Notes under the pieces: model-generated
The model's database searches: none
What the model was told of the DNA's origin: nothing
The model's input: the letters and a program-made list of their open reading frames with translations, nothing else
Shown here: piece after piece, positions 11,073-61,262 of the stretch
Layout: each line of letters begins with the position of its first letter
How positions within the stretch are numbered: position 1 is the first letter of the stretch
Program-made: the position numbers and the translations under genes
Sequence record: MW233709
DNA: 64,000 nucleotides
DNA from: Escherichia phage UPEC01
Strand: one strand, 5' to 3'

Positions 11073-13133
11073 ATGTCTGAACAATTAAATGAACTCTTTG
11101 ACAAATATATCGAAGCCTTCGGTTATCCTGTCATTAATATGAACCCAAAATACAAGGTCCCACAGGTTTGGCAATTCGGTGTTCCTGGGACAAATTCTCT
11201 TATGGCTCGTTTGATGCAATTCACGGGCAAAGAAACGGTTAAACAATATAAACGCGGTGATGCGATTGCCGAGGTATTTCTGTTATCCGGGACTTCACAT
11301 GGCCATGCTATTCCTCTGAAGGGTGGTCTAGGTGAAAAACCTCTTGACGCGATTAACCTGATTTTTGTTACAGTCTGGGAAAGCATTAAACTAGGTAAAC
11401 CTGATGTAGTCTTGTTCCGTTTCCCATCCAAAAAGATGAAAGGACAAGACCAAGCTGTTATTCGTATTATGAATCGACTGATTCAAATGAAAACCAGCGG
11501 ACGTTATCATGTTCTTCCGAATGCTTCTGGCCTCGGTAAAAAGAACGCTTATGTAATTATGTACAAAAAGGGTGTTGACCTGCTTTCGGTTGATGGTATG
11601 CCACCAGTCCCTGAGAAATATCAAAAAGTTGAAACTAAAGTTGGCGATGTATTCACCAATAAAGATACAGGCGCGCAAGTCTCCAAACAAGAAATCGCAG
11701 CCGAAGTTCTGATTAACGCAGCAAACAAAAAGACCGACGCAGCTGTTGCCCAGAAAACTAAAATCAGTCGCCGAGCTATTGCACAAGCCCAGTACGCACC
11801 AAGTGATTCCGTGCCAGAAGGTTGGGACGAAATTGATGCAGAAGCTGCTAAGTTTAGTCGACCGGCTACGGCAGAACTTATCGATGATTATGAAGAACTG
11901 GAAATTTTTGTTCGACCTTCCGAAACGAATACTATGGCTCGTATGCGCGCCGCGGATACGGCTATGCGAGCAAATGGTGTTTGGAAAGAAGAAATTCGTG
12001 TTGAAGACTCTGACCCAATTTTTAACCGTATGCATCGTGAACTTAAACGTGCCCCAGTTGGTAGCATGAAGCAGATGCAGATTTTTGCCGAATCATGCGC
12101 AGAGATTCTTAACCTTCGCAAAGCCGCATTTATCGAAAGAAAAATGAATGATGCTCCTCCTAACCTGGATGCAGCCACTTATGCAGCCTCGCTCTGGGAA
12201 AAAGAATACACAAGCGCCATTCGTGTTGCAGTTAAAGACTTTGCCGAAGAAGCATCAGAAAATACTCTTAATTTCACAGCAGGGTATACTGACAACCGTT
12301 TCCATTATGGCCAGCGAGAAGCAATTGCAGATTATTGTGGAGCAAACTATGCCGATATTAATAATTATTTGATGGGCAAATATTATGAAGAAGAAGCTGA
12401 ATTCCTAAATCTAGACAGAGTTGTCGAAACAATTAAGGAATTGGATTCGGCCTTTGAAATTGGACATAAGTTGCCGCCTAATACAACTCTTTGGCGTGGT
12501 CAATATTTAAATGTTCCTACATTTGATAAAATTAAGCAATCGAAATTATTTTATTTCAGGAACTATGTATCAACGTCGTTTAAACCGATTATCTTTGGTG
12601 GTTGGGTGGCGAACGTTGCTATGGCTGCAGTTCATCAGGACTATCGTGATGGGACATCTTTCCAGGCTGATGACGAAATTGTTTTACCAGATATGCCGGA
12701 TGCACGCCGCGACCACGTAATGATGCATGTTGGTTGGAAAATTTCTGGGGCGGACTTAATTAACGTAATTGTTCCTGGGGAATTGTCAAGCAACCCGTCC
12801 GAGCAGGAAGTTATTCTTCCTCGTGGGACTGTAGTTAAGATTACCAAAATTACTGATGCTTCGTATCAAGGAAACGCGAACGTCAAAATGCTGGAAGCTG
12901 ATATCCAGACTACGGACCAACTGGATGAAAATGCAGTTATCTATGATGGCGATGTGTTGATGGAAACTGGTGAGCTTGTCGTTTATCAGGGCGAGGAAAC
13001 AGAAGAGCCAGTAGAATCTGTTGACTTTGCATCGTTTGCATCCTCTGGTGTAACGAAGAAAGTCAATCAAGGTCTTGGTATTCTTGCTAGTTGTATTAAT
13101 TTGGAAGCTATTCCTCCTAAATTCCTTTCGTAG
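11073..13133 (+). CDS. alt: Alt-like mono-ADP-ribosyltransferase (head-packaged)
   Basis: 686 aa; conserved KVETKVGDVFTNKDTGAQV...KISRRAIAQ region as in T4 Alt; C-terminal ART motifs YVSTSF and EQE; late promoter TATAAATA at 11040-11047. Confidence 0.88.
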   Translation: MSEQLNELFDKYIEAFGYPVINMNPKYKVPQVWQFGVPGTNSLMARLMQFTGKETVKQYKRGDAIAEVFLLSGTSHGHAIPLKGGLGEKPLDAINLIFVTVWESIKLGKPDVVLFRFPSKKMKGQDQAVIRIMNRLIQMKTSGRYHVLPNASGLGKKNAYVIMYKKGVDLLSVDGMPPVPEKYQKVETKVGDVFTNKDTGAQVSKQEIAAEVLINAANKKTDAAVAQKTKISRRAIAQAQYAPSDSVPEGWDEIDAEAAKFSRPATAELIDDYEELEIFVRPSETNTMARMRAADTAMRANGVWKEEIRVEDSDPIFNRMHRELKRAPVGSMKQMQIFAESCAEILNLRKAAFIERKMNDAPPNLDAATYAASLWEKEYTSAIRVAVKDFAEEASENTLNFTAGYTDNRFHYGQREAIADYCGANYADINNYLMGKYYEEEAEFLNLDRVVETIKELDSAFEIGHKLPPNTTLWRGQYLNVPTFDKIKQSKLFYFRNYVSTSFKPIIFGGWVANVAMAAVHQDYRDGTSFQADDEIVLPDMPDARRDHVMMHVGWKISGADLINVIVPGELSSNPSEQEVILPRGTVVKITKITDASYQGNANVKMLEADIQTTDQLDENAVIYDGDVLMETGELVVYQGEETEEPVESVDFASFASSGVTKKVNQGLGILASCINLEAIPPKFLS

Positions 13134-20772: not shown

Positions 20773-20797
20773 TGCTTTAATTTTATGGCTGTATAAT
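20771..20797 (+). promoter_or_regulatory. middle-type promoter cassette upstream of uvsY
   Basis: aaTGCTTTA 20771-20779, 12-nt spacer, TATAAT 20792-20797, followed by GGTTCTAGACC. Confidence 0.6.
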
Positions 20798-20825
20798 GGT
20801 TCTAGACCCTTACATTGGATACATT

Positions 20826-26775: not shown

Positions 26776-26803
26776 TTTGCTTCAAATAAAATTGTGGTAT
26801 AAT
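26776..26803 (+). promoter_or_regulatory. middle-type promoter cassette upstream of rnlB
   Basis: ttTGCTTCA 26776-26784, 13-nt spacer, TATAAT 26798-26803, followed by GGTTCTAGACC. Confidence 0.6.
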
Positions 26804-26901
26804 GGTTCTAGACCTTCCGATACGATTAATTTCTTTTCAGAGAAAGAAAGTATAGAGAGTCTAATTTATAATGATATTTATAACATCAAAAGTGAGAGAT
26901 T

Positions 26902-27909: not shown

Positions 27910-27940
27910 AAAAAAGGGCCGCAAGGCCCTTATTCTTTTT
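27908..27940. terminator. bidirectional intrinsic terminator (rnlB + / gene 24 paralog -)
   Basis: AAAAAAAA-GGGCC-GCAA-GGCCC-TTATTCTTTTT. Confidence 0.7.
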
Positions 27941-29213
27941 CCAGTGGCGGAAGTTTAACGCCAAGATAAGAACTCAATTGGCTTTGGTTAGCCATCTTAT
28001 CCATATCAGCCCCATCAATAAGGCGGGCTTCTTTATCGTCTTTAGCAACGGTATAGGGGTTCGCTGTCAATGCATAACGAGCTAACAGTGCAACCGTAGG
28101 CTGTAAGCTTTCAGGGTCAACAATAACCTTGAATTCTCCGACCGATGTATCCCCCTCATCATCAACTTCGCTAAGTCCTTCCGTATAAGGCGCATAATAC
28201 AAAGATGCGACCGTCTGACCTTCACCCATATCAGCATTTACACCGACAATAACATAATCACATGGACTATTCATATCTGCGTAAAGAGGCAAACCGTTCT
28301 TCAGAACACCATAGGCTAATTCATCCTGGTCTTCCTTTTTCTCAACCCAGCCAGAAGCGGCTAAAATAGCTGCACAACGGGAAGAAGCAACCGCATATGT
28401 ACCAGCAAACGAAGTCTGACGTTGAACTGCAGAATTCATTTCACACATATAATAATACAGGGTTCGTGCGCGGTCCTGTGCGTTATCATATTTCGGGTCA
28501 GTGAGATTCAACACACCTTTTTCAGAAACACCTTGTACCTTGAAGCGAGAACTAACAGTAATAAGGGATTGCAATACATCCTTATTAATTTCCTCTGCCA
28601 TTTGAATGCCGAGAATATTATCGATGAAGTCTGTTGCATCGAAACCGTTTGCTTCCAGGTCCTGAGCAAGCTCGACAGTTAAAGAAGTTTTCAACTTTCT
28701 GGATTTAACTTCAGTCTGCCATTTATCGATACGGAAACCAGCTTCAGCAATTTCAGGATGCCCCTTTTCAAATTTATCAGTGAAAGCAGCATCTGACATC
28801 ATTCTTATATGTCCAGCAGCAATGGCTTCAGAAATAACTTCACCTAAATCAGTTTCGAGTGTCCCGGCAAAGGGGGAAGCTTCCAGAACTTTGAATACAA
28901 CGCTTTCAAACTGAAACATATCGCCGACTGCATAAGCTTCATCTTTGTTCGTAAATTCTGGAATATTCTTACGCTCGAACATACCAATCTGACCTGCAAA
29001 TGTTGCTCCACCGAGATATGTCATTTTATCATCTGGGTTCAGAACACGAACACCATACAACGCTGCAACAGGCTGTGTAGTTTTCTGTTCGGCAACGAGT
29101 GCTTTAAAAATTCGTTTATTCGTGGCCTGGGTATAAGAAAGCAAATTAGGACGGGCGACCTGGTTGGCCGCCGTTAATGTTGATTCGTGAATTAGTGCGT
29201 TAATCTTTTGCAT
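27930..29213 (-). CDS. head vertex protein gp24 paralog (diverged second copy)
   Basis: 427 aa; shares gp24 family blocks (VKSRKLKT.LTVELAQDLEANGF, EINKDVLQSLITVS, FKVIVDPESLQP, ANPYTVAKDDKEAR) with the upstream copy but is clearly diverged. Confidence 0.8.
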   Translation of the reverse strand: MQKINALIHESTLTAANQVARPNLLSYTQATNKRIFKALVAEQKTTQPVAALYGVRVLNPDDKMTYLGGATFAGQIGMFERKNIPEFTNKDEAYAVGDMFQFESVVFKVLEASPFAGTLETDLGEVISEAIAAGHIRMMSDAAFTDKFEKGHPEIAEAGFRIDKWQTEVKSRKLKTSLTVELAQDLEANGFDATDFIDNILGIQMAEEINKDVLQSLITVSSRFKVQGVSEKGVLNLTDPKYDNAQDRARTLYYYMCEMNSAVQRQTSFAGTYAVASSRCAAILAASGWVEKKEDQDELAYGVLKNGLPLYADMNSPCDYVIVGVNADMGEGQTVASLYYAPYTEGLSEVDDEGDTSVGEFKVIVDPESLQPTVALLARYALTANPYTVAKDDKEARLIDGADMDKMANQSQLSSYLGVKLPPLEKE

Positions 29214-30494
29214 TTACGCCTCATAAATGATTGGCGGAAGTTTAACACCGAGCAGATAAGACATATTGCTCTGACCGGCCATTAAATCCATATTGGTTGC
29301 ATCGATAATACGAGCTTCTTTATCGTCTTTAGCAACGGTGTAAGGGTTAGCTGAAAGTGCATAACGAACCATCAAAGAGATAGCTGGTTGCAAACTGTCA
29401 GGGTCCACAATGACTTTAAACGCGCCTACATGCTCTTCATCATCTAAGTCCAGGCCTTCGGTATAAGGAGCATAGAAGATTGAGCCTACGACTTCGTTTC
29501 CGCCGTAATTTTCTTTAACGCCAACGGTTACATAATCCAATGGACTGTTAACATCACAGAATACAGGAAGACCATTAATCAAATAACCGTACGCTGTTTC
29601 AGGAAGCCACTGTTCGTCTTCAGGTTTATGCTTCAGCCAGCCAGAACCGGCCAACATAGCAGCAACACGGCTGGAGGCAACAACAAAGGTACCGGAATAA
29701 GATGTAGTTTTCTGAATTTCGGAGTTCATTTCGCAAACCAGTTCGTACAGTTTACGTGCGCCTTCTGGAGCTGCATCATATGTTAAATCGATGGTGCCAT
29801 TGTCAGAAACACCAGTTACTTTATAACGCTTGGAAACGGTAATAAGAGACTGAAGAACATCTTTGTTAATTTCATCTGCCATAATAGTAGCAAGCAGGTC
29901 TTCCAGGAAAGCAGGAGCATTAAAGCCATTTGCTTCCATATCCTGAGCAAGCTCAACAGTTAATGCAGTTTTCAATTTACGGGATTTAACAGGAGCATTC
30001 CATTTATTAACCTGGAATACAGCGTTACTAATTTCAACATCACCGGCTTCAAATTTCTCGGTGTGCGCTGCATCAGGAACCAAACGAATGGTTAATGCAA
30101 TAAGACCTTCTTGCAGAACATCTGATAATACAGTTTCGGTAGTCGATGCAAATGGATTATCAACCAGAGCTTTGTAAACGATATTTTGGTATTTTACATA
30201 TTCGCCTTTAGCAACAGGCTGAGTGGCTGTAGTTAATTCTGGAATAGTTGTACGGTCTTTAGAACCGACTTCGCCTCCATAAGTAGCGCCCGTCTGGAAA
30301 CTGAATTCATTATCAGGAGTAAGATATTTAACACCATACAGTGCAGCAACAGGCTGGTTAGTACGTTGTTCAGCGATGATATCGCGGTAAATCAATTTAG
30401 TCGTAGCGCGGGTCAAAGCAACAAGATTCGGGCGGCCCAATGAGTTGCTGGTAGTAATAGTTGACTCGCGCAGTAATTTGTTAATCTTTGCCAT
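29214..30494 (-). CDS. 24: head vertex protein gp24
   Basis: 426 aa; MAKINKLLRESTITTSNSLGRPNLVALTRATTKLIY... closely matches recalled T4 gp24; late promoter at 30521-30528. Confidence 0.9.
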   Translation of the reverse strand: MAKINKLLRESTITTSNSLGRPNLVALTRATTKLIYRDIIAEQRTNQPVAALYGVKYLTPDNEFSFQTGATYGGEVGSKDRTTIPELTTATQPVAKGEYVKYQNIVYKALVDNPFASTTETVLSDVLQEGLIALTIRLVPDAAHTEKFEAGDVEISNAVFQVNKWNAPVKSRKLKTALTVELAQDMEANGFNAPAFLEDLLATIMADEINKDVLQSLITVSKRYKVTGVSDNGTIDLTYDAAPEGARKLYELVCEMNSEIQKTTSYSGTFVVASSRVAAMLAGSGWLKHKPEDEQWLPETAYGYLINGLPVFCDVNSPLDYVTVGVKENYGGNEVVGSIFYAPYTEGLDLDDEEHVGAFKVIVDPDSLQPAISLMVRYALSANPYTVAKDDKEARIIDATNMDLMAGQSNMSYLLGVKLPPIIYEA

Positions 30495-34436: not shown

Positions 34437-34693
34437 TATTCATCGTCCTCATCTTCATCGTCGTCGCCTTCATCTGCGTCGTCAGATTCTTTTTTGTCTT
34501 TCTTTTCTGCTTTGGCGTCGTCCTTGCCTTCATCATCTTCTTTAGGCTCTTCACCTTCAATCATGATGGAACGTGCAATTTCAATCTTACGTTCTTCAAT
34601 CAAACTACCGCATACTGGGCCAATGTTTTCAGCAAAATATTTGCGAACGGCTACGAGGTCGTTTGATTTAATGGCTTCAAATAAATCATCCAT
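34436..34693 (-). CDS. 67: prohead core protein gp67
   Basis: 85 aa with strongly acidic C-terminus; position after gene 20. Confidence 0.7.
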
Positions 34694-36267
34694 TAGAAAT
34701 CCTCTTCTTCTTCTTCAGGGTTTTGGAAACGAGCCTCTTTGGACTCCAATTCAATTTGCTTAGCTTCTTGATTAATTTCTTCATCAGACATCTGGAGGAA
34801 GTCCTTCATAGCCGTTTGATGCGAAATATATTTACCGATAAACGGTTCAGCCATCGTTAGCATATTGATTCTGCGTTCCATGATTTCTGCATCTTTCATT
34901 TCAGTGAAATAGCTATCACGGTTGAACGTAACTTTAATATTATTTAGTTCCTTGTCCCATTCCTCTTCTGAAATAACTTTTTTCAGGATAAGGTTGGTTT
35001 TAAGCGGGTCGAGGAAAACTTCTTCAAATTTATTCTGTAACTGTCTAATCCATTTAGAGAAATTCAATTCATCGCGAGTAATTGTCGCCCCCGCATCAAA
35101 CATAACGCCGCTGTTCTGGTCATTAGGGATACGAGATAATGGAATTCTGAGAGCCTGATATAGGTTGTTCTTAAACCAGCGAACATCGTCCATATCCGAC
35201 ATGCCTTGTGCACCTGGGAGAGTATCAACTTCGGTGACTGCTTTACCGTCACGACGTTGCAACCAATAGTCTTCTGTCATTGACATATTGTGCTGTTGGT
35301 TTTTGATTTTACCCGTAGTTGCATCATATACGACACGGTTTTTCATCGTGTTCATAATATGTTGCATATGTGCTGCTGCTTTACGAGACGGCATATTCCC
35401 AGTATCGATATAAAAGACTCGGCGGTCTGGAGCACGAGTTATACGATAAATGACTAAAGCATCTTCTAATAGTTTTAATTGGTTTGCAGGTTTGATTGCT
35501 CGTTGCAGGTATCCGATGATATTCTTACCGCAACAATCAAGTAATCCGGAATGCGCATATACAATTGCCGCACGAGGAATTTTTATTTTAGTACCCGCTT
35601 CATATATACGACCATCGGCACAATAACTTTCATGACCTGTATCGTATACAAAATATTCTCTGTAACCGTCAACAATTTTCGTACCATTTTCCATGCGTGT
35701 AACGATTTCACGGATGAACTGGATTTGTCTTGGGTCAAGGCGACGAAGTTCTTGAACACCTTCTTTAAGTTTTGAAGGGTTGATAATTTTGTGGAAGAAA
35801 ATTCGAGAATCCACATACCAACGTTTAAAGTGGTCAGAACCTTTACGCTCGAAATTAAGGAGGTTATTAACTTCCGAGAATTCTTCGAGAATTCGGTCTT
35901 TAATTTTCTGACTAAATTCAGTAGCATCAAGGTTAAGAGCTACAACATCTTTGCCGTCTTCAAATACGATGGCATCAGATACAATCTCTTGAACCGCGTT
36001 ATCAACTTCATAATTATTTAGTAGGTTACGGTATGTGTCAATTAATTCCCTGGTGTTTTTTACTTCCGGTTCGTTGCTCCCGAACATCTGTTGCATCAAT
36101 GCATTATACGGGACGTTTTGTTCTTGTGACTCAATTTCGCGAGCCCCATCATCAAACTTCGGCCCGGTCATTGACTCTAAATTATTTTTTTCTTGTTGCT
36201 TATATTCTTGTTCATCTTCTTTAGCCCAAGGCTTAAGAAAATTTAGTATTGTATTAAAACCTGCCAT
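34693..36267 (-). CDS. 20: portal vertex protein gp20
   Basis: 524 aa; extended near-identity to recalled T4 gp20 (e.g. [43 protein letters not shown]). Confidence 0.95.
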
Positions 36268-36324: not shown

Positions 36325-36816
36325 TTATTCCCACCAGTCAATAGCAAACGTTGTTTCAAACGTCTCAATCTCATTATTACTGTCCCAATCCATCTGGACT
36401 TCCCCAACGTTAGTTGGCCACATGCCGGTAATAACAACTTCTTTAGTAACGGTCTTGCCATCACGATGGAACTGGCGGACAGTAGCGGTTTTCTTATAAT
36501 CAGCAGGAGCTGCACCGGTAATTTCGTTGGTCATACCGTGACACATATTTTGCCAATCAACAATTGCTTGACGAACTTTATGAGCATCGTCGTTATAAAT
36601 CGTAATAGTCCAGTCATCAAATGTACGGTCTCCCGCAACGTTGATTTTACGGTTCATGTAACCAACTGGTACTTTTTCTACAATGCCTGCTGGCATCGGG
36701 GCTGCTTTACAATGGAAAGCAAAGTTTTTACCCAGGAATGGGATTTCGACTTCGAACAGGTTAGGGCGAGCAAAGTCACCGGATTCGAAAGCGCGTGTGA
36801 TATCGGTCAACTCCAT
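36325..36816 (-). CDS. 19: tail tube protein gp19
   Basis: 163 aa from ATG 36816 (SD GAGGA, late promoter 36869-36876); TRAFESGDFARPNLF... matches recalled T4 gp19; track start 36867 rejected. Confidence 0.9.
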   Translation of the reverse strand: MELTDITRAFESGDFARPNLFEVEIPFLGKNFAFHCKAAPMPAGIVEKVPVGYMNRKINVAGDRTFDDWTITIYNDDAHKVRQAIVDWQNMCHGMTNEITGAAPADYKKTATVRQFHRDGKTVTKEVVITGMWPTNVGEVQMDWDSNNEIETFETTFAIDWWE

Positions 36817-36868
36817 TAAGGAATCCTCTTTATAGACACAGGTCGCGCGTACGCGTCCCTGATGCATG

Positions 36869-36876
36869 TATTTATA
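36869..36876 (-). promoter_or_regulatory. late promoter upstream of gene 19
   Basis: TATAAATA on - strand about 53 nt upstream of gp19 ATG. Confidence 0.6.
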
Positions 36877-36934: not shown

Positions 36935-36985
36935 CCGTAGAACCGATTATGCTTTTATTTATAACACTGTATAATGGTTCTACGG
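36935..36985 (+). promoter_or_regulatory. orphan middle-type promoter cassette inside 10-bp inverted repeat (antisense to genes 18/19)
   Basis: aTGCTTTTA 36949-36957, TATAAT 36970-36975, GGTTCTACGG; enclosed by CCGTAGAACC 36935-36944 / GGTTCTACGG 36976-36985; a - strand TATAAATA (36956-36963) overlaps. Confidence 0.45.
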
Positions 36986-37021
36986 TTTTACTGCTAATTA
37001 ATTCTTTCTAAGCGATGATAA

Positions 37022-39001
37022 TTATTGTGGCCCAATCAGCTCATCAAAATCAGCACCAGTGCTTGTGGCTACGAAATTAAGCGTGATGTAGTTGATGCTG
37101 CGCGCAGGTTTAAAATAAATGCTAGCAACAAACTCATTTCGGTCTATGACCGACGGGGTGTTGTTAGTAGTATCACAAACCACACGACCTTCATAAATGC
37201 CACCGAGTGCACGAATACCATCCAAGTATTGAGAAGTTTCCATACGGAATGATGCACGAGTGAAGTTATCGTTAAGCTCAAACAGTTTATATTTGGATGC
37301 GTCACCGATATTTTTCTTCAGCATATTCGTAAGACGGCGAACGTTAATATGGTCCATCGGAGATGGAACTTTAGTTGCAGTCTTATCACCATACAGAACA
37401 AAACCATCACCACCTGCGAAACCAACAACCGGGTTGATAGCTTCTTGATACATGCGGTCACGCTGGGTCTGACGAGGTTCAACAGCCAATTTCAGAACAT
37501 TCAGAATCTGACCACGGTTATAACCAGCCGGAGACATCCAAGGCTGAGAAACATCATCAGTACGAGCACACAGTCCAGCCATATCAGCTGCCAGAGGAAC
37601 CCAACGGTTAACGTCGTTATATTTATCATACTGATATTTATAGTTGCCATCAATCGCTGCATAAGTCGTGCTGATATTCATGTTATCAGTATCAAATGCG
37701 CCAGCACCTGTACGCCAGTCAATCAGGTTATCCACTGCACGGGTCAGAGGAACGTTAACCAACAGACCTTTCGGCGGGGAAATGAATGCCAAGCAATCCT
37801 GACGTTCGTCAGCAATAGAAACCACGTGCTTCTGAACAGTGGAAGCGGTCGCATCACCTTCACCAGCACAAGCACCAGCGATAAGCAGGTTGATATGCAG
37901 AGCTTCACGGTCAGCGAACAGGTCCCAACCTTGCATCAAATCACCAGCGGTAATCTTATCGTTTGCAGAAATACCACCAGACAGATTGATGATACCACTG
38001 AAGCCTACAGGCCAGTTGCGAGATGTTGCATAGATGTAGTTGGAAGTACCTTTTGCAAAGTAGTCATCCAGGTAAATGTTATTACCATAAACATCTTTTT
38101 CGCCCTGCTTAGTAGACAAAACAACGTTTTCGACGATTGCACCATCGCGGCGAACGATAATTGCATATTGGTTTTCGGTCTGAGGACCATAGTTAAACAC
38201 TGCACGAGCTATAGAAGCGCGGGAACCACCACCGGGGAAAATATCCAGATTTGCAGTTGCGCCTTTTTCAAATTCAGCTTTGGATACGATTTCAACTTCA
38301 AGAGTCGAACCAATTTCACCAGGATAAAGAGCAACAACACCCGGCATTGCATATTTTGCCAATGATGCCTGGAATTCCAGAGAAGTAATTGCTTCTTCAC
38401 TGTTTTCTGCTTCAGTCAACAGAATGCCAGAATCGGTAACAATTTTCCCGACAGTGATGGTACCAGATACACCGGAAGAAGTGGTCGTAACTTCTGCAGT
38501 CCATGCACTGCCCAAATTAGGATACTGATTAATAGTTTTAGCAAATGCAATAATCTTATTGGTAGGAATAAAGATTGCCAGAATTTTACCATCAACATCG
38601 ACCTTGGTCACACGGCCAGCCGGTTCAACAACAGTCTGGTTGTGTTTAACTTGAATAACATCACCGACAGCATAGTTTGTACCAGCAGTTACGATGGTAG
38701 TTTCAATATTGCCAGCAATAGGGGATGCGTTTTTAGCTTCGTCACGGTTAACAACACGTACAGTACGGAGGTCGTTACCATATTGCAGGAAGTTCATCCC
38801 ACTCATAAAGTAATCTGCTGTTTCATTATTCGGACCACCAAACAAATCAACAAGTTCAACTTCGTTTGTAATCTGAGTTACCTGGAAAGCTGGGCCCCAC
38901 TGGAATTTACCAACCAGCGCCGCACGACCCGTCGCGTTACGAACAACAGTGCTTTGGACCGTTGTTTCTTTGAGCTCAATGCCCGGAGATAATAAAGCCA
39001 T
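37022..39001 (-). CDS. 18: tail sheath protein gp18
   Basis: 659 aa; LLSPGIELKETTVQSTVV N-terminus and size match T4 gp18; late promoter 39031-39038. Confidence 0.95.
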   Translation of the reverse strand: MALLSPGIELKETTVQSTVVRNATGRAALVGKFQWGPAFQVTQITNEVELVDLFGGPNNETADYFMSGMNFLQYGNDLRTVRVVNRDEAKNASPIAGNIETTIVTAGTNYAVGDVIQVKHNQTVVEPAGRVTKVDVDGKILAIFIPTNKIIAFAKTINQYPNLGSAWTAEVTTTSSGVSGTITVGKIVTDSGILLTEAENSEEAITSLEFQASLAKYAMPGVVALYPGEIGSTLEVEIVSKAEFEKGATANLDIFPGGGSRASIARAVFNYGPQTENQYAIIVRRDGAIVENVVLSTKQGEKDVYGNNIYLDDYFAKGTSNYIYATSRNWPVGFSGIINLSGGISANDKITAGDLMQGWDLFADREALHINLLIAGACAGEGDATASTVQKHVVSIADERQDCLAFISPPKGLLVNVPLTRAVDNLIDWRTGAGAFDTDNMNISTTYAAIDGNYKYQYDKYNDVNRWVPLAADMAGLCARTDDVSQPWMSPAGYNRGQILNVLKLAVEPRQTQRDRMYQEAINPVVGFAGGDGFVLYGDKTATKVPSPMDHINVRRLTNMLKKNIGDASKYKLFELNDNFTRASFRMETSQYLDGIRALGGIYEGRVVCDTTNNTPSVIDRNEFVASIYFKPARSINYITLNFVATSTGADFDELIGPQ

Positions 39002-39030: not shown

Positions 39031-41337
<2,307 letters not shown>

Positions 41338-59919: not shown

Positions 59920-60369
59920 ATGGCATACTCCGGGAAATTTAAGCCCACCAATATAGAAAAATATAAGGGCGACTGGAAGAAAATACAATACCGGTCAAGT
60001 TGGGAGGCTTGGCTGATGAGATGGCTCGACAACCATCCGAACGTTGTTCAATGGGGTTCTGAGACTGTGATTATTCCATACTTCTGCAACGCGGAAGGGA
60101 AAAAGCGCAGATATTATATGGATTTCTGGGTTAAGTTCGATACGGGGCAACAGTTCTTTTTCGAAGTTAAACCATTAAAAGAAACAAGACCCCCAACCAA
60201 ACCGGCCAATAATACCACTGCGAGTAAAAAGAGATTTATTAATGAGATGTACACCTGGAGCGTTAACTCTGACAAATGGAAAGCTGCGCAAGCTACCGCG
60301 GATAAGATGGGTATAACGTTCAGGATAATCACTGAAAACTCACTGAAAAAATTAGGATGGAAAGGATGA
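59920..60369 (+). CDS. 4: head completion protein gp4
   Basis: 149 aa; late promoter TATAAATA 59884-59891; order 4-2-3-1 as in T4. Confidence 0.8.
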
Positions 60370-61190: not shown

Positions 61191-61202
61191 TCTATTATCG
61201 GT

Positions 61203-61262
61203 CAGTGTTATTGGTAAGGACAAAAGGTCTAGAACCATTATAACACTGATTGTTTTAAAGCA
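61203..61262 (-). promoter_or_regulatory. orphan middle-type promoter cassette on - strand (antisense to gene 2)
   Basis: - strand reads TGCTTTA-N13-TATAAT-GGTTCTAGACC (+ coords 61262-61226); inverted repeat CAGTGTTAT 61203-61211 / ATAACACTG 61240-61248. Confidence 0.45.

What the first reader, a model, noticed from the sequence alone, without database searches (positions are those of the whole stretch)
36935..36985. Orphan copy of the promoter cassette, inside a perfect 10-bp inverted repeat, antisense to tail genes 18/19
In the gene 19-18 intergenic region (both genes on the - strand), a + strand copy of the cassette (TGCTTTTA...TATAATGGTTCTACGG) is enclosed by CCGTAGAACC (36935-36944) and GGTTCTACGG (36976-36985). 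No + strand gene lies downstream for about 23 kb, so a transcript from here would be antisense to gene 18. The same 50 bp also contains a - strand TATAAATA (36956-36963) in addition to the gene 19 late promoter at 36869-36876. This may be a cassette remnant, an antisense RNA promoter or a recombination site.
Basis: seen in the sequence. Interest (0 to 1): 0.5.

Follow-up and report, generated by a model that had tools for sequence, protein, structure and literature searches.

The report
Hairpin-nested antisense middle promoter, genes 18/19
Between the tail-sheath and tail-tube genes of this T4-like phage lies a conserved 51-bp hairpin holding a middle-period promoter that points backwards into the sheath gene and overlaps a late promoter for the tube gene; it is a new context for known promoter types, and what its antisense transcript does is unknown.

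Summary
CCGTAGAACC (36935-44) and GGTTCTACGG (36976-85) form a perfect inverted repeat. It encloses TGCTTTT, a 13-nt spacer, then TATAAT-GGTTCTA on the + strand, and TATAAATA on the - strand.

The window is a Gaprivervirus (VR7/VR25/SP18 group), and its + strand is the early/middle transcription direction. The "cassette" is a T4-type MotA/AsiA middle promoter. In the VR7 genome this pattern occurs 22 times against 0.6 expected, 20 of them on the early/middle strand.

The element is an invariant island between variable flanks in 16 relatives. It survives insertion of an HNH-like gene (19.1) on either side. Dhakavirus and a Klebsiella phage group also carry an antisense TATAAT inside an inverted repeat at this position; T4 does not.

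The hairpin stands where nearly all T4-like phages have a stem-loop after gene 18. The internal TATAAATA parallels T4's second gene-19 late promoter.

My best reading is a real prereplicative promoter making an untranslated anti-late transcript, back to back with a late promoter. T4's oriG, a MotA promoter antisense to late gene 34, is the closest precedent, so an R-loop origin is not excluded. No expression data exist. This is a new variant of known kinds, of moderate interest.

The parts
36935..36944 (.). Left arm of the inverted repeat (CCGTAGAACC)
   Evidence: 100% complementary to 36976-85. Invariant in 15 aligned relatives that have it. Absent in VR26, where the 11 nt CGTAGAACCGA are missing.
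36976..36985 (.). Right arm of the inverted repeat (GGTTCTACGG). Its first 7 nt (GGTTCTA) are also the discriminator and start region shared by the promoter sub-family.
   Evidence: In VR26, which lacks the left arm, only GGnTCTA is kept and the arm-specific CGG has changed.
36946..36950 (.). ATTAT, which pairs with ATAAT 36971-75 and extends the stem past a bulged G
   Evidence: minimum-free-energy structures on both strands
36947..36956 (+). MotA box region: TTA-TGCTTTT, a 6/7 match to TGCTT(t/c)A with A/T-rich upstream bases
   Evidence: Consensus from PMC2988021. The TGCTTTT variant occurs in 5 of 22 VR7 sites, including the one upstream of gene 30 (T4 has a mapped P30).
36970..36975 (+). 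-10 hexamer TATAAT, 13 nt from the box. The predicted start is A at 36982.
   Evidence: Invariant in all 16 aligned sequences. The start position is inferred from spacing.
36956..36963 (-). Distal late promoter TATAAATA for gene 19, inside the hairpin loop. The predicted start is A at 36950, inside the MotA box.
   Evidence: T4 also has two TATAAATA between genes 18 and 19. -13 to -6 positioning from PMC1524935.
36869..36876 (-). Proximal late promoter TATAAATA for gene 19
   Evidence: It lies in a 15-nt direct repeat with the distal one.
36986..37021 (+). A+T-rich, unstructured spacer that the + strand transcript would cross first (candidate unwinding element)
   Evidence: the 40-bp duplex stability is in the least stable 1.2% of the window, but 7.8% at 50 bp. 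RNA fold z +1.9.
36325..36816 (-). Gene 19 (tail tube), downstream of both late promoters
37022..39001 (-). Gene 18 (tail sheath). The + strand transcript would be antisense to its 3' end.
61202..61262 (-). Sister element: a - strand cassette copy (box 61262-56, TATAAT 61242-37, GGTTCTAGACC) inside a second perfect 10-bp inverted repeat (61202-11 / 61240-49). It is antisense to late genes 2 and 4.

Best explanation
The element is a compact two-way promoter node sitting in the loop of the hairpin that separates late genes 18 and 19.

On the + strand, which is the early/middle transcription direction, it carries a sigma-70 promoter of the T4 middle class: a MotA box at -30 and a perfect -10. This promoter belongs to an intragenomic sub-family that shares the discriminator and start sequence GGTTCTA.

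Inferred mechanism:
- In the prereplicative period, AsiA-remodelled RNA polymerase plus MotA starts at about 36982. It makes an untranslated transcript antisense to the 3' end of gene 18, or to the HNH-like gene 19.1 in relatives that carry it. That transcript is probably short-lived.
- The gp55-type late promoter TATAAATA lies 6 bp from the -10 on the other strand, and its start site falls inside the MotA box. Occupancy of the two promoters should therefore be mutually exclusive.
- As polymerase is converted to the late form, the node switches from firing rightwards (anti-late) to firing leftwards into gene 19.
- The 10+5-bp stem forms only on late read-through RNA from gene 18. It takes the place of the stem-loop that follows gene 18 in nearly all T4-like phages.

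Shown: the sequence features, their statistical excess, their conservation and their positional counterparts. Inferred: promoter activity, MotA dependence, the switch, and any role of the RNA.
For: - Pattern specificity. In VR7, sites with a GCTT core, at most 1 mismatch to TGCTT(T/C)A, an 11-13 nt spacer and a perfect TATAAT number 22, against 0.58 expected. Twenty lie on the early/middle strand, and this element is one of them.
- Factors present. VR7 encodes motA and asiA.
- Sub-family. The GG(T/G)TCT tail links it to the promoters in front of uvsY, rnlB, nrdC.6 and cd.3. T4 has mapped middle promoters PuvsY, PrnlB and Pcd.
- Conservation. The core is invariant in 16 Gaprivervirus sequences. 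The 45 nt to its left are completely replaced in VR7-type genomes and the right flank varies.
- VR26. It keeps the 36 nt from the box to the start site in unrelated flanks.
- Other genera. Dhakavirus (51 records) and the Klebsiella F48/Marfa group (24 records) have an antisense, perfect TATAAT inside an inverted repeat at the same place, with (T/C)GCT at the right distance.
- Late-strand counterparts. T4 has a hairpin plus two TATAAATA here. Nearly all lineages sampled with gp19 at least 55% identical show a stable hairpin between gene 18's stop and gene 19, in most starting within about 20 nt of the stop. VR26 has such a separate hairpin and lacks the inverted-repeat arm.
- Recurrent architecture. 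All 3 intergenic antisense copies in VR7 have a perfect 10-bp inverted repeat spanning the -10 region, against 0 of 19 other sites. This comparison is post hoc, Fisher p about 6.5e-4.
Against: - There are no transcript, 5'-end or in vitro data for any phage that has the element.
- The box is TGCTTTT, not TGCTT(t/c)A.
- Every conserved base of the + strand promoter also lies in the hairpin or next to the late promoter. Conservation alone therefore cannot assign selection to one strand.
- The arms never vary, so there is no covariation test of the stem.
- In Dhakavirus and the Marfa group the MotA box is degenerate (CGCTGTA, TGCTAAA). MotA dependence may be specific to Gaprivervirus.
- T4, the only phage with mapped middle promoters, has none between 75 and 110 kb and none here.
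- No function for the RNA is shown.
Confidence: 0.55

Rival explanations
1. It is a replication origin of the T4 oriF/oriG type. The orphan MotA promoter makes a transcript that stays annealed in the A+T-rich DNA just downstream as an R-loop. RNase H processes it, and it primes leading-strand synthesis into gene 18.
For: - T4 oriG is exactly an orphan MotA promoter (P34i) whose primer RNA runs opposite to late gene 34 (RefSeq note; promoter sequence).
- oriF is the uvsY promoter. Its Gaprivervirus homologue is a sister copy of this cassette.
- The minimal oriF/oriG is about 100 bp: a middle promoter plus an A+T-rich unwinding element of no fixed sequence (PMC3016281).
- The 40 bp after the predicted start are in the least stable 1.2% of the window. 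The RNA there is unstructured.
Against: - At 50-60 bp the stability is unexceptional (7.8-13%).
- The predicted transcript is pyrimidine-rich, with purine 0.37 over 30 nt and 0.43 over 60 nt. The T4 oriF and oriG transcripts are 0.63 and 0.58 over 60 nt. By general knowledge, pyrimidine-rich RNA makes weaker RNA-DNA hybrids.
- VR7 keeps the P34i homologue, so there is no missing origin to replace.
- The site lies inside a 46-kb co-directional late block, not at a strand switch.
- The downstream DNA differs completely among the window, VR7 and VR26 arrangements.
Confidence: 0.15
2. Only the late-strand features work: a stem-loop after gene 18 (an RNA 3'-end or processing element) and a second late promoter for gene 19. 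The + strand promoter look-alike is a silent by-product. For example, it may be an old cassette copy frozen because its bases are now constrained by the stem and by TATAAATA.
For: - A hairpin followed by TATAAATA is the general layout of this spacer across T4-like phages.
- The stem is strong.
- Every + strand promoter base overlaps or abuts a late-strand feature.
- The left arm plus ATTAT looks like an inverted copy of ATAATGGTTCTACGG, as a templated strand-switch event would make.
Against: - VR26 has lost the stem yet keeps the box, the spacing, TATAAT and GGnTCTA.
- The Dhakavirus and Marfa-group loops hold TATAAT but no late promoter. TATAAT is therefore the common feature.
- The motif CAUUAUAC has no constant structural position in the three hairpins.
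- The chance rate for the full pattern is about 0.6 per genome.
- There is no U-run after the stem on the late strand.
Confidence: 0.2
3. It is a recombination or mobility element. One version is a PeSL-like promoter/stem-loop cassette that mediates shuffling. Another is the landing or recognition site of the HNH-like endonuclease genes (19.1) found beside it in relatives.
For: - Related 19.1 genes (phrog_5104, 35% identical to each other, with an HNH-like DH...N...N motif) sit on one side of the element in VR7, QL01 and UGJNEcP4, and on the other side in VR26 and vB_EcoM_005.
- A MobB-like gene adjoins the sister element in VR7.
- The cassette is multi-copy. T4-type recombination needs only short homology (PMC2839356).
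Against: - The element is intact in genomes with and without inserts, and the insertion junctions lie outside it.
- The arms are single-copy in the genome and there is no target-site duplication.
- Several PeSL criteria are not met (see the membership test).
- Cleavage sites are unknown.
Confidence: 0.1

Closest known systems
T4 MotA/AsiA-dependent middle promoters (sigma appropriation)
   Same: Box TGCTTTT at -30 with A/T upstream, a 13-nt spacer, a perfect TATAAT, and orientation in the early/middle direction. The genus encodes MotA and AsiA. Sister copies sit in front of uvsY and rnlB, genes for which T4 has mapped middle promoters.
   Different: No gene lies downstream. The last box base is T, not A. 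The promoter is nested in a hairpin and overlaps a late promoter. T4 has no promoter at this position.
T4 oriG / ori(34), promoter P34i
   Same: An orphan MotA-type promoter in a late structural region that fires antisense to a late tail gene and makes a non-coding RNA. The -10 and discriminator are also similar (T4 TATAATGGTCCCAGAG, here TATAATGGTTCTACGG).
   Different: oriG is inside a coding sequence and has no inverted repeat. Its transcript is purine-rich. Origin activity here is untested, and the phage group keeps its own P34i homologue.
T4 late promoters placed inside hairpins (genes e, soc, I-TevI, segB, mobE type)
   Same: A TATAAATA lies between the two arms. Read-through RNA can therefore form the stem, but RNA started at the late promoter lacks the 5' arm.
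   Different: In the known cases the stem hides the ribosome-binding site of the next gene. Here the 3' arm is about 120 nt upstream of the gene 19 start and contains no Shine-Dalgarno sequence.
PeSL promoter/stem-loop cassettes of RB49, phi1, PST and nt-1
   Same: A short, repeated regulatory cassette that combines a sigma-70-type promoter with a stem-loop, next to variable inserted genes.
   Different: PeSLs have early (-35/-10, UP-element) promoters beside a G/C-tract terminator stem. They lie in hyperplastic regions and point at the ORF they serve. Here the promoter is the middle type, lies inside the stem-loop, sits in the core late cluster and is antisense.

Membership tests
T4-type MotA-dependent middle promoter | MotA box (a/t)(a/t)(a/t)TGCTT(t/c)A centred near -30 | tested here: met
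   TTA-TGCTTTT at 36947-56, a 6/7 match with the GCTT core intact. The same variant occurs at 5 of 22 VR7 sites. MotA tolerates single changes (PMC2988021).
T4-type MotA-dependent middle promoter | Box 12 +/- 1 bp from an excellent sigma-70 -10 (TAtaaT) | tested here: met
   13-nt spacer and TATAAT 6/6
T4-type MotA-dependent middle promoter | The phage encodes MotA and AsiA | tested here: met
   VR7 (same genus, 94% identical over the 1.4-kb gene 18/19 query) has motA at 161715-162323 and asiA at 159858-160133. Neither gene lies in this 64-kb window.
T4-type MotA-dependent middle promoter | MotA/AsiA-dependent initiation in vivo or in vitro | not testable with these tools
   No transcript data were found for Gaprivervirus.
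T4 oriF/oriG-type R-loop origin | Middle-mode promoter within a minimal origin of about 100 bp | tested here: met
   See above. Definition from PMC3016281.
T4 oriF/oriG-type R-loop origin | [quoted passage not shown] | tested here: inconclusive
   The 40-bp window is in the least stable 1.2%, the 50-bp window 7.8% and the 60-bp window 13%. The flank is not conserved among arrangements.
T4 oriF/oriG-type R-loop origin | Persistent R-loop and autonomous replication of an origin plasmid | not testable with these tools
   Only an indirect hint is available: the transcript is pyrimidine-rich, unlike those of oriF and oriG.
PeSL (promoter-early stem-loop) | Strong sigma-70 early promoter with -35, -10 and an A/T-rich upstream region | tested here: not met
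   No + strand -35/-10 match here. A MotA box replaces the -35.
PeSL (promoter-early stem-loop) | Adjacent G/C-tract stem-loop acting as a terminator | tested here: not met
   The stem encloses the promoter and has no polyG/polyC. There is no U-run on the late strand. The TTTT on the + strand is TTTC or TTTA in relatives.
PeSL (promoter-early stem-loop) | Located in hyperplastic regions flanking ORFans | tested here: not met
   It lies in the core late cluster between genes 18 and 19, although HNH-like inserts occur beside it.
Hairpin-gated late gene (e/soc/I-TevI type) | Late promoter lies inside the hairpin, so late RNA lacks the 5' arm | tested here: met
   TATAAATA 36963-56 lies between the arms, with a predicted start at 36950.
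Hairpin-gated late gene (e/soc/I-TevI type) | The stem sequesters the ribosome-binding site or start codon of the downstream gene | tested here: not met
   The 3' arm (36944-35) is 119 nt from the gene 19 ATG (36816). The Shine-Dalgarno GAGG is at about 36825.
Intrinsic terminator | Stable stem with a short loop, followed by a U-run | tested here: not met
   The loop is 31 nt (16-20 nt after the extension). There is no U-run on the late strand, and the element is not listed by the terminator scan.
Rfam RNA families | Score at or above a family's gathering threshold | tested here: not met
   Only sub-threshold chance hits (21.7 and 18.8 bits against thresholds of 51 and 47.5).

The most novel reading that the evidence does not exclude
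Hairpin-nested antisense promoters are a distinct regulatory device of T-even-type phages. A sigma-70 promoter is placed inside the stem-loop at the 3' end of a gene and fires back into that gene. There are three such intergenic sites in one Gaprivervirus genome (18/19, 2/3 and modA/srd) and counterparts at 18/19 in two other genera. The transcript or the R-loop it leaves would have a DNA-level job: an extra oriG-like replication origin, or a primer-template junction where the gp45 clamp is loaded to switch on the adjacent late promoter. On this reading it is not a conventional antisense RNA.
Probability: 0.15. Interest if true: 0.65.

Novelty: new variant of a known kind. Interest (0 to 1): 0.4.

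Why it matters
T4 is the reference system for timed phage transcription and for origins primed by transcripts. Even so, only one orphan antisense middle promoter (oriG) is understood there, and none is mapped in the 53-24 late cluster.

A conserved antisense promoter fused to a late promoter inside a hairpin would offer three things:
- a natural case of a two-way switch between middle and late polymerase forms on about 30 bp of DNA;
- a candidate extra origin or source of anti-late RNA;
- an explanation of why this spacer tolerates homing-endonuclease insertions on both sides without losing the element.

Practically, no public record annotates it. Some pipelines instead call a spurious small ORF there.

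Tried and rejected
- Antisense protein gene. The 338-codon + strand ORF at 37349-38365 is a codon-bias shadow of gene 18. The open stretch is 370 codons here, 288 in VR26 and 171 in VR25, and it varies similarly in Dhakavirus.
- Small + strand ORF in the spacer. This is only a RAST call in a few records. It starts upstream of the promoter.
- Known RNA family. None was found.
- MITE-like element with terminal repeats. The arms are single-copy in VR7 apart from one coding-sequence hit, and there is no target duplication.
- Intrinsic terminator on either strand. There is no conserved U-run.
- + strand gene at this locus in any relative. All inserts in 79 IMG/VR loci that carry a called ORF have it on the late strand; two inserts had no ORF of 80 codons or more.
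- Complementary loss of the oriG promoter. VR7 retains it.
- Pfam domains in 19.1. None at E below 0.001. PHROGs gives only phrog_5104 (unknown function) and a weak endonuclease VII hit.
- 19.1 against the MobB-like gene beside the sister element. They are unrelated.
- IMG/VR pattern scan for the core. It mostly gave chance hits and was not used further.
- Literature searches for anti-late RNA, Gaprivervirus promoters or T4-like start-site maps. Nothing usable was found.
- Covariation test of the stem. This is impossible because the arms are invariant.

Full report
**What the window is**

The 1.4 kb around the finding is 94-99% identical to Escherichia and Shigella phages of the genus Gaprivervirus (TH15, VR25, VR20, SP18, VR7). 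The - strand carries the late genes 20 (34693-36267), 19 (36325-36816), 18 (37022-39001) and 17 (39034-40866). Against the fully annotated VR7 genome, the window is the reverse complement of about 70-134 kb. The window's + strand is therefore the strand from which T4-type phages transcribe early and middle genes.

**The observation**

- CCGTAGAACC (36935-44) and GGTTCTACGG (36976-85) are perfectly complementary, with 31 nt between them.
- The stem continues past a bulged G with ATTAT pairing ATAAT. Predicted stability is -21.3 kcal/mol for the late-strand RNA (z -3.9) and -25.1 kcal/mol for the + strand (z -5.8).
- A perfect 10-bp inverted repeat with a loop of 40 nt or less is expected 0.011 times in a 205-nt spacer.
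- The two - strand TATAAATA motifs (36963-56 and 36876-69) are real.
- The next + strand gene with a homologue is gene 4 at 59920.

**What the "cassette" is**

The + strand reads TTA-TGCTTTT, then 13 nt, then TATAAT-GGTTCTA. The three other copies in the window read TGCTT(T/C)A, then 12-13 nt, then TATAAT-GGTTCTAGACC. They stand in front of uvsY (20792), in front of rnlB (26798), and on the - strand in the gene 2/3 spacer (61242).

This is the architecture of T4 middle promoters: a MotA box (a/t)(a/t)(a/t)TGCTTtA placed 12 +/- 1 bp from a sigma-70 -10, used by AsiA-remodelled polymerase plus MotA (PMC2988021; PMC1524935). VR7 encodes both motA and asiA.

I counted sites in the whole VR7 genome with a GCTT core, at most one mismatch to TGCTT(T/C)A, an 11-13 nt spacer and a perfect TATAAT. 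There are 22, against 0.58 expected from Markov-1 simulations. Twenty lie on the early/middle strand, and the 18/19 element is one of them. The TGCTTTT form of the box occurs in five of the 22, including the site upstream of gene 30; T4 has a mapped P30.

A sub-family of seven shares the discriminator and start sequence GG(T/G)TCT(A/G). Its members are uvsY, rnlB, nrdC.6, cd.3, the 18/19 element, the 2/3 spacer and the modA/srd spacer. So "copy of a promoter cassette" is right, and the cassette has a name.

**Conservation**

The 205-nt spacer is found only in 33 Gaprivervirus records. I aligned 16 of them.
- The stretch GGAG(C/T)CCGTAGAACCGAT(GA)TATGCTTTTATTTATA[A/G/C]CA[C/T]TGTATAATGGTTCTACGGTTT is almost invariant.
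- The only changes fall in the promoter spacer or upstream of the box.
- The 45 nt to its left are completely replaced in the VR7/DCP80/TH57 type, and the right flank varies.

VR26 is informative. It keeps 36 nt from the box to the start site, within otherwise unrelated flanks. It lacks exactly the 11 nt CGTAGAACCGA that make the left arm. In the right arm it retains only GGnTCTA, the part shared with the other cassette copies. It also has a separate, ordinary G/C hairpin after gene 18. The promoter core and the stem are therefore separable, and the core persists without the stem.

**Wider comparison**

I took 79 IMG/VR loci encoding gp19 relatives. The usual spacer layout is gene 18 stop, then a tight G/C hairpin, then TATAAATA, then gene 19, in 36-130 nt. 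T4 itself has a hairpin and two TATAAATA, and nothing promoter-like on the opposite strand. None of T4's 58 mapped middle promoters lies between 75 and 110 kb.

Two other groups do carry an antisense, perfect TATAAT enclosed by inverted repeats at this position.
- Dhakavirus (51 records): CCCAGGC...acGCTGTAAccaaactcatgGTATAATGGTTttagg...GCCTGGG.
- The Klebsiella F48/Marfa group (24 records): CCTACCGG/CCGTAGG around CCTGAAG...GTATAAT..CTTCAGG.

Their boxes are degenerate (CGCTGTA, TGCTAAA). Their loops contain no late promoter. The RNA motif complementary to the -10 has no constant structural position. The common denominator is therefore the -10 on the early/middle strand.

**Late-strand features**

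The internal TATAAATA parallels T4's distal gene-19 late promoter. Its predicted start (36950) falls inside the MotA box, and it lies 6 bp from the + strand -10. The two promoters are back to back and overlapping. I infer that they cannot be occupied together.

The arrangement resembles the known T4 device of a late promoter placed inside a hairpin (PMC2988022). Here, however, the 3' arm is about 120 nt from the gene 19 start and hides no ribosome-binding site. There is no U-run after the stem on the late strand. The TTTT on the + strand is not conserved. The stem is therefore best seen as the local version of the post-gene-18 stem-loop rather than a terminator.

**A hot spot for inserted genes**

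Several lineages carry a 194-227-residue ORF on the late strand in this spacer.
- The VR7, VR26 and UGJNEcP4 versions belong to phrog_5104.
- The VR7 and VR26 versions are 35% identical to each other and share an HNH-like DH...N...N motif. Pfam gives no hit.
- The ORFs occupy two sites: between the element and gene 18 (VR7, QL01, UGJNEcP4), or between gene 19 and the element (VR26, vB_EcoM_005). This holds in both Gaprivervirus and Dhakavirus.

The element survives both kinds of insertion. In VR7-type genomes its promoter points antisense into 19.1.

**A recurrent architecture**

The window's other antisense copy lies in the gene 2/3 spacer and sits in a second perfect 10-bp inverted repeat (61202-11 / 61240-49). 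In VR7 a MobB-like gene adjoins it.

I scored the 22 VR7 promoter sites for perfect inverted repeats spanning the -10. All three intergenic antisense copies (modA/srd, 2/3, 18/19) have 10-bp arms. The other 19 have 9 bp at most, and usually 6 bp or none. This comparison is post hoc (Fisher p about 6.5e-4). It suggests that nesting in a dyad goes with antisense placement. In the modA/srd case the two arms are two divergent -10 regions.

**What the transcript might do**

The closest precedent is T4 oriG. The RefSeq record states that its primer RNA runs opposite to late gene 34. oriF is the uvsY promoter. The minimal oriF/oriG is a middle promoter plus an A+T-rich unwinding element (PMC3016281).

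Here the first 40 bp after the predicted start are in the least stable 1.2% of the window. At 50-60 bp the region is unexceptional. The predicted RNA is pyrimidine-rich (purine 0.37-0.43), whereas the T4 origin transcripts are 0.58-0.63 purine over 60 nt. VR7 keeps its own P34i. The origin reading is therefore possible but not favoured.

A protein product is excluded. The long + strand ORF inside gene 18 is a non-conserved shadow. No Rfam family matches.

**Verdict**

The element is most likely a functional MotA-type middle promoter that fires antisense to gene 18, fused back to back with a late promoter for gene 19, inside the intercistronic hairpin. Its activity and the role of its RNA remain untested. 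It is a new context for known promoter classes rather than a new kind of system.

Noticed in passing
window 61202-61262: A second perfect 10-bp inverted repeat (TCAGTGTTAT / ATAACACTGA, loop 28) encloses another antisense cassette copy on the - strand. It lies in the spacer between late genes 2 and 3, both on the + strand. VR7 has the same element next to a MobB-like endonuclease gene.
   Followed up: partly
window 20773-20807, 26778-26813, 61227-61262; VR7 45779, 132888: A sub-family of middle promoters shares TATAAT-GG(T/G)TCTAG(A/G)(C/T)C(C/T)TT across the discriminator and start site. This is a near-palindrome, GGT(T)CTAGACC. Most other predicted middle promoters in VR7 lack it. It could be a protein site or a 5'-leader motif; the cause is unknown.
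   Followed up: partly
L110 (VR7) 11622-11694: A third orphan cassette copy, in the modA/srd spacer, points antisense into modA. Its -10 region GTGTATAATG is in a perfect inverted repeat with a -10-like TATAAT about 45 nt upstream of srd on the sense strand, 53 bp away, so the two face in opposite directions.
   Followed up: partly
L001 2213-2818, L002 2021-2704, L006 1716-2336: HNH-like 19.1 genes (phrog_5104, no Pfam hit) are inserted at two alternative sites flanking the element, in both Gaprivervirus and Dhakavirus. The VR7-type insert brings its own hairpin with an internal TATAAATA (GCGCGTATTTATATCATACGCGC).
   Followed up: partly
window 37349-38365 (+): A 338-codon ORF lies antisense to gene 18, in the codon-aligned frame. 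Its length varies from 171 to 370 codons among close relatives, so it is a codon-bias shadow and not a gene.
   Followed up: yes
window 36862-36876 and 36949-36963: A 15-nt direct repeat, ATGC(A/T)T(G/T)TATTTATA, links the two gene-19 late promoters. The reverse complement of the distal promoter's initial transcribed sequence doubles as the MotA box.
   Followed up: partly
window 27930-29213 and 29214-30494 (-): Two tandem gene 24 (capsid vertex) paralogues of 427 and 426 residues. VR7 annotates them as 24(1) and 24(2).
   Followed up: no
L005 1600-1695; L055 2820-3000: Dhakavirus and the Klebsiella F48/Marfa group have their own inverted-repeat-enclosed antisense TATAAT between genes 18 and 19. 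One Klebsiella record (PhiKpNIH-6) has a terminator feature annotated in this spacer.
   Followed up: partly
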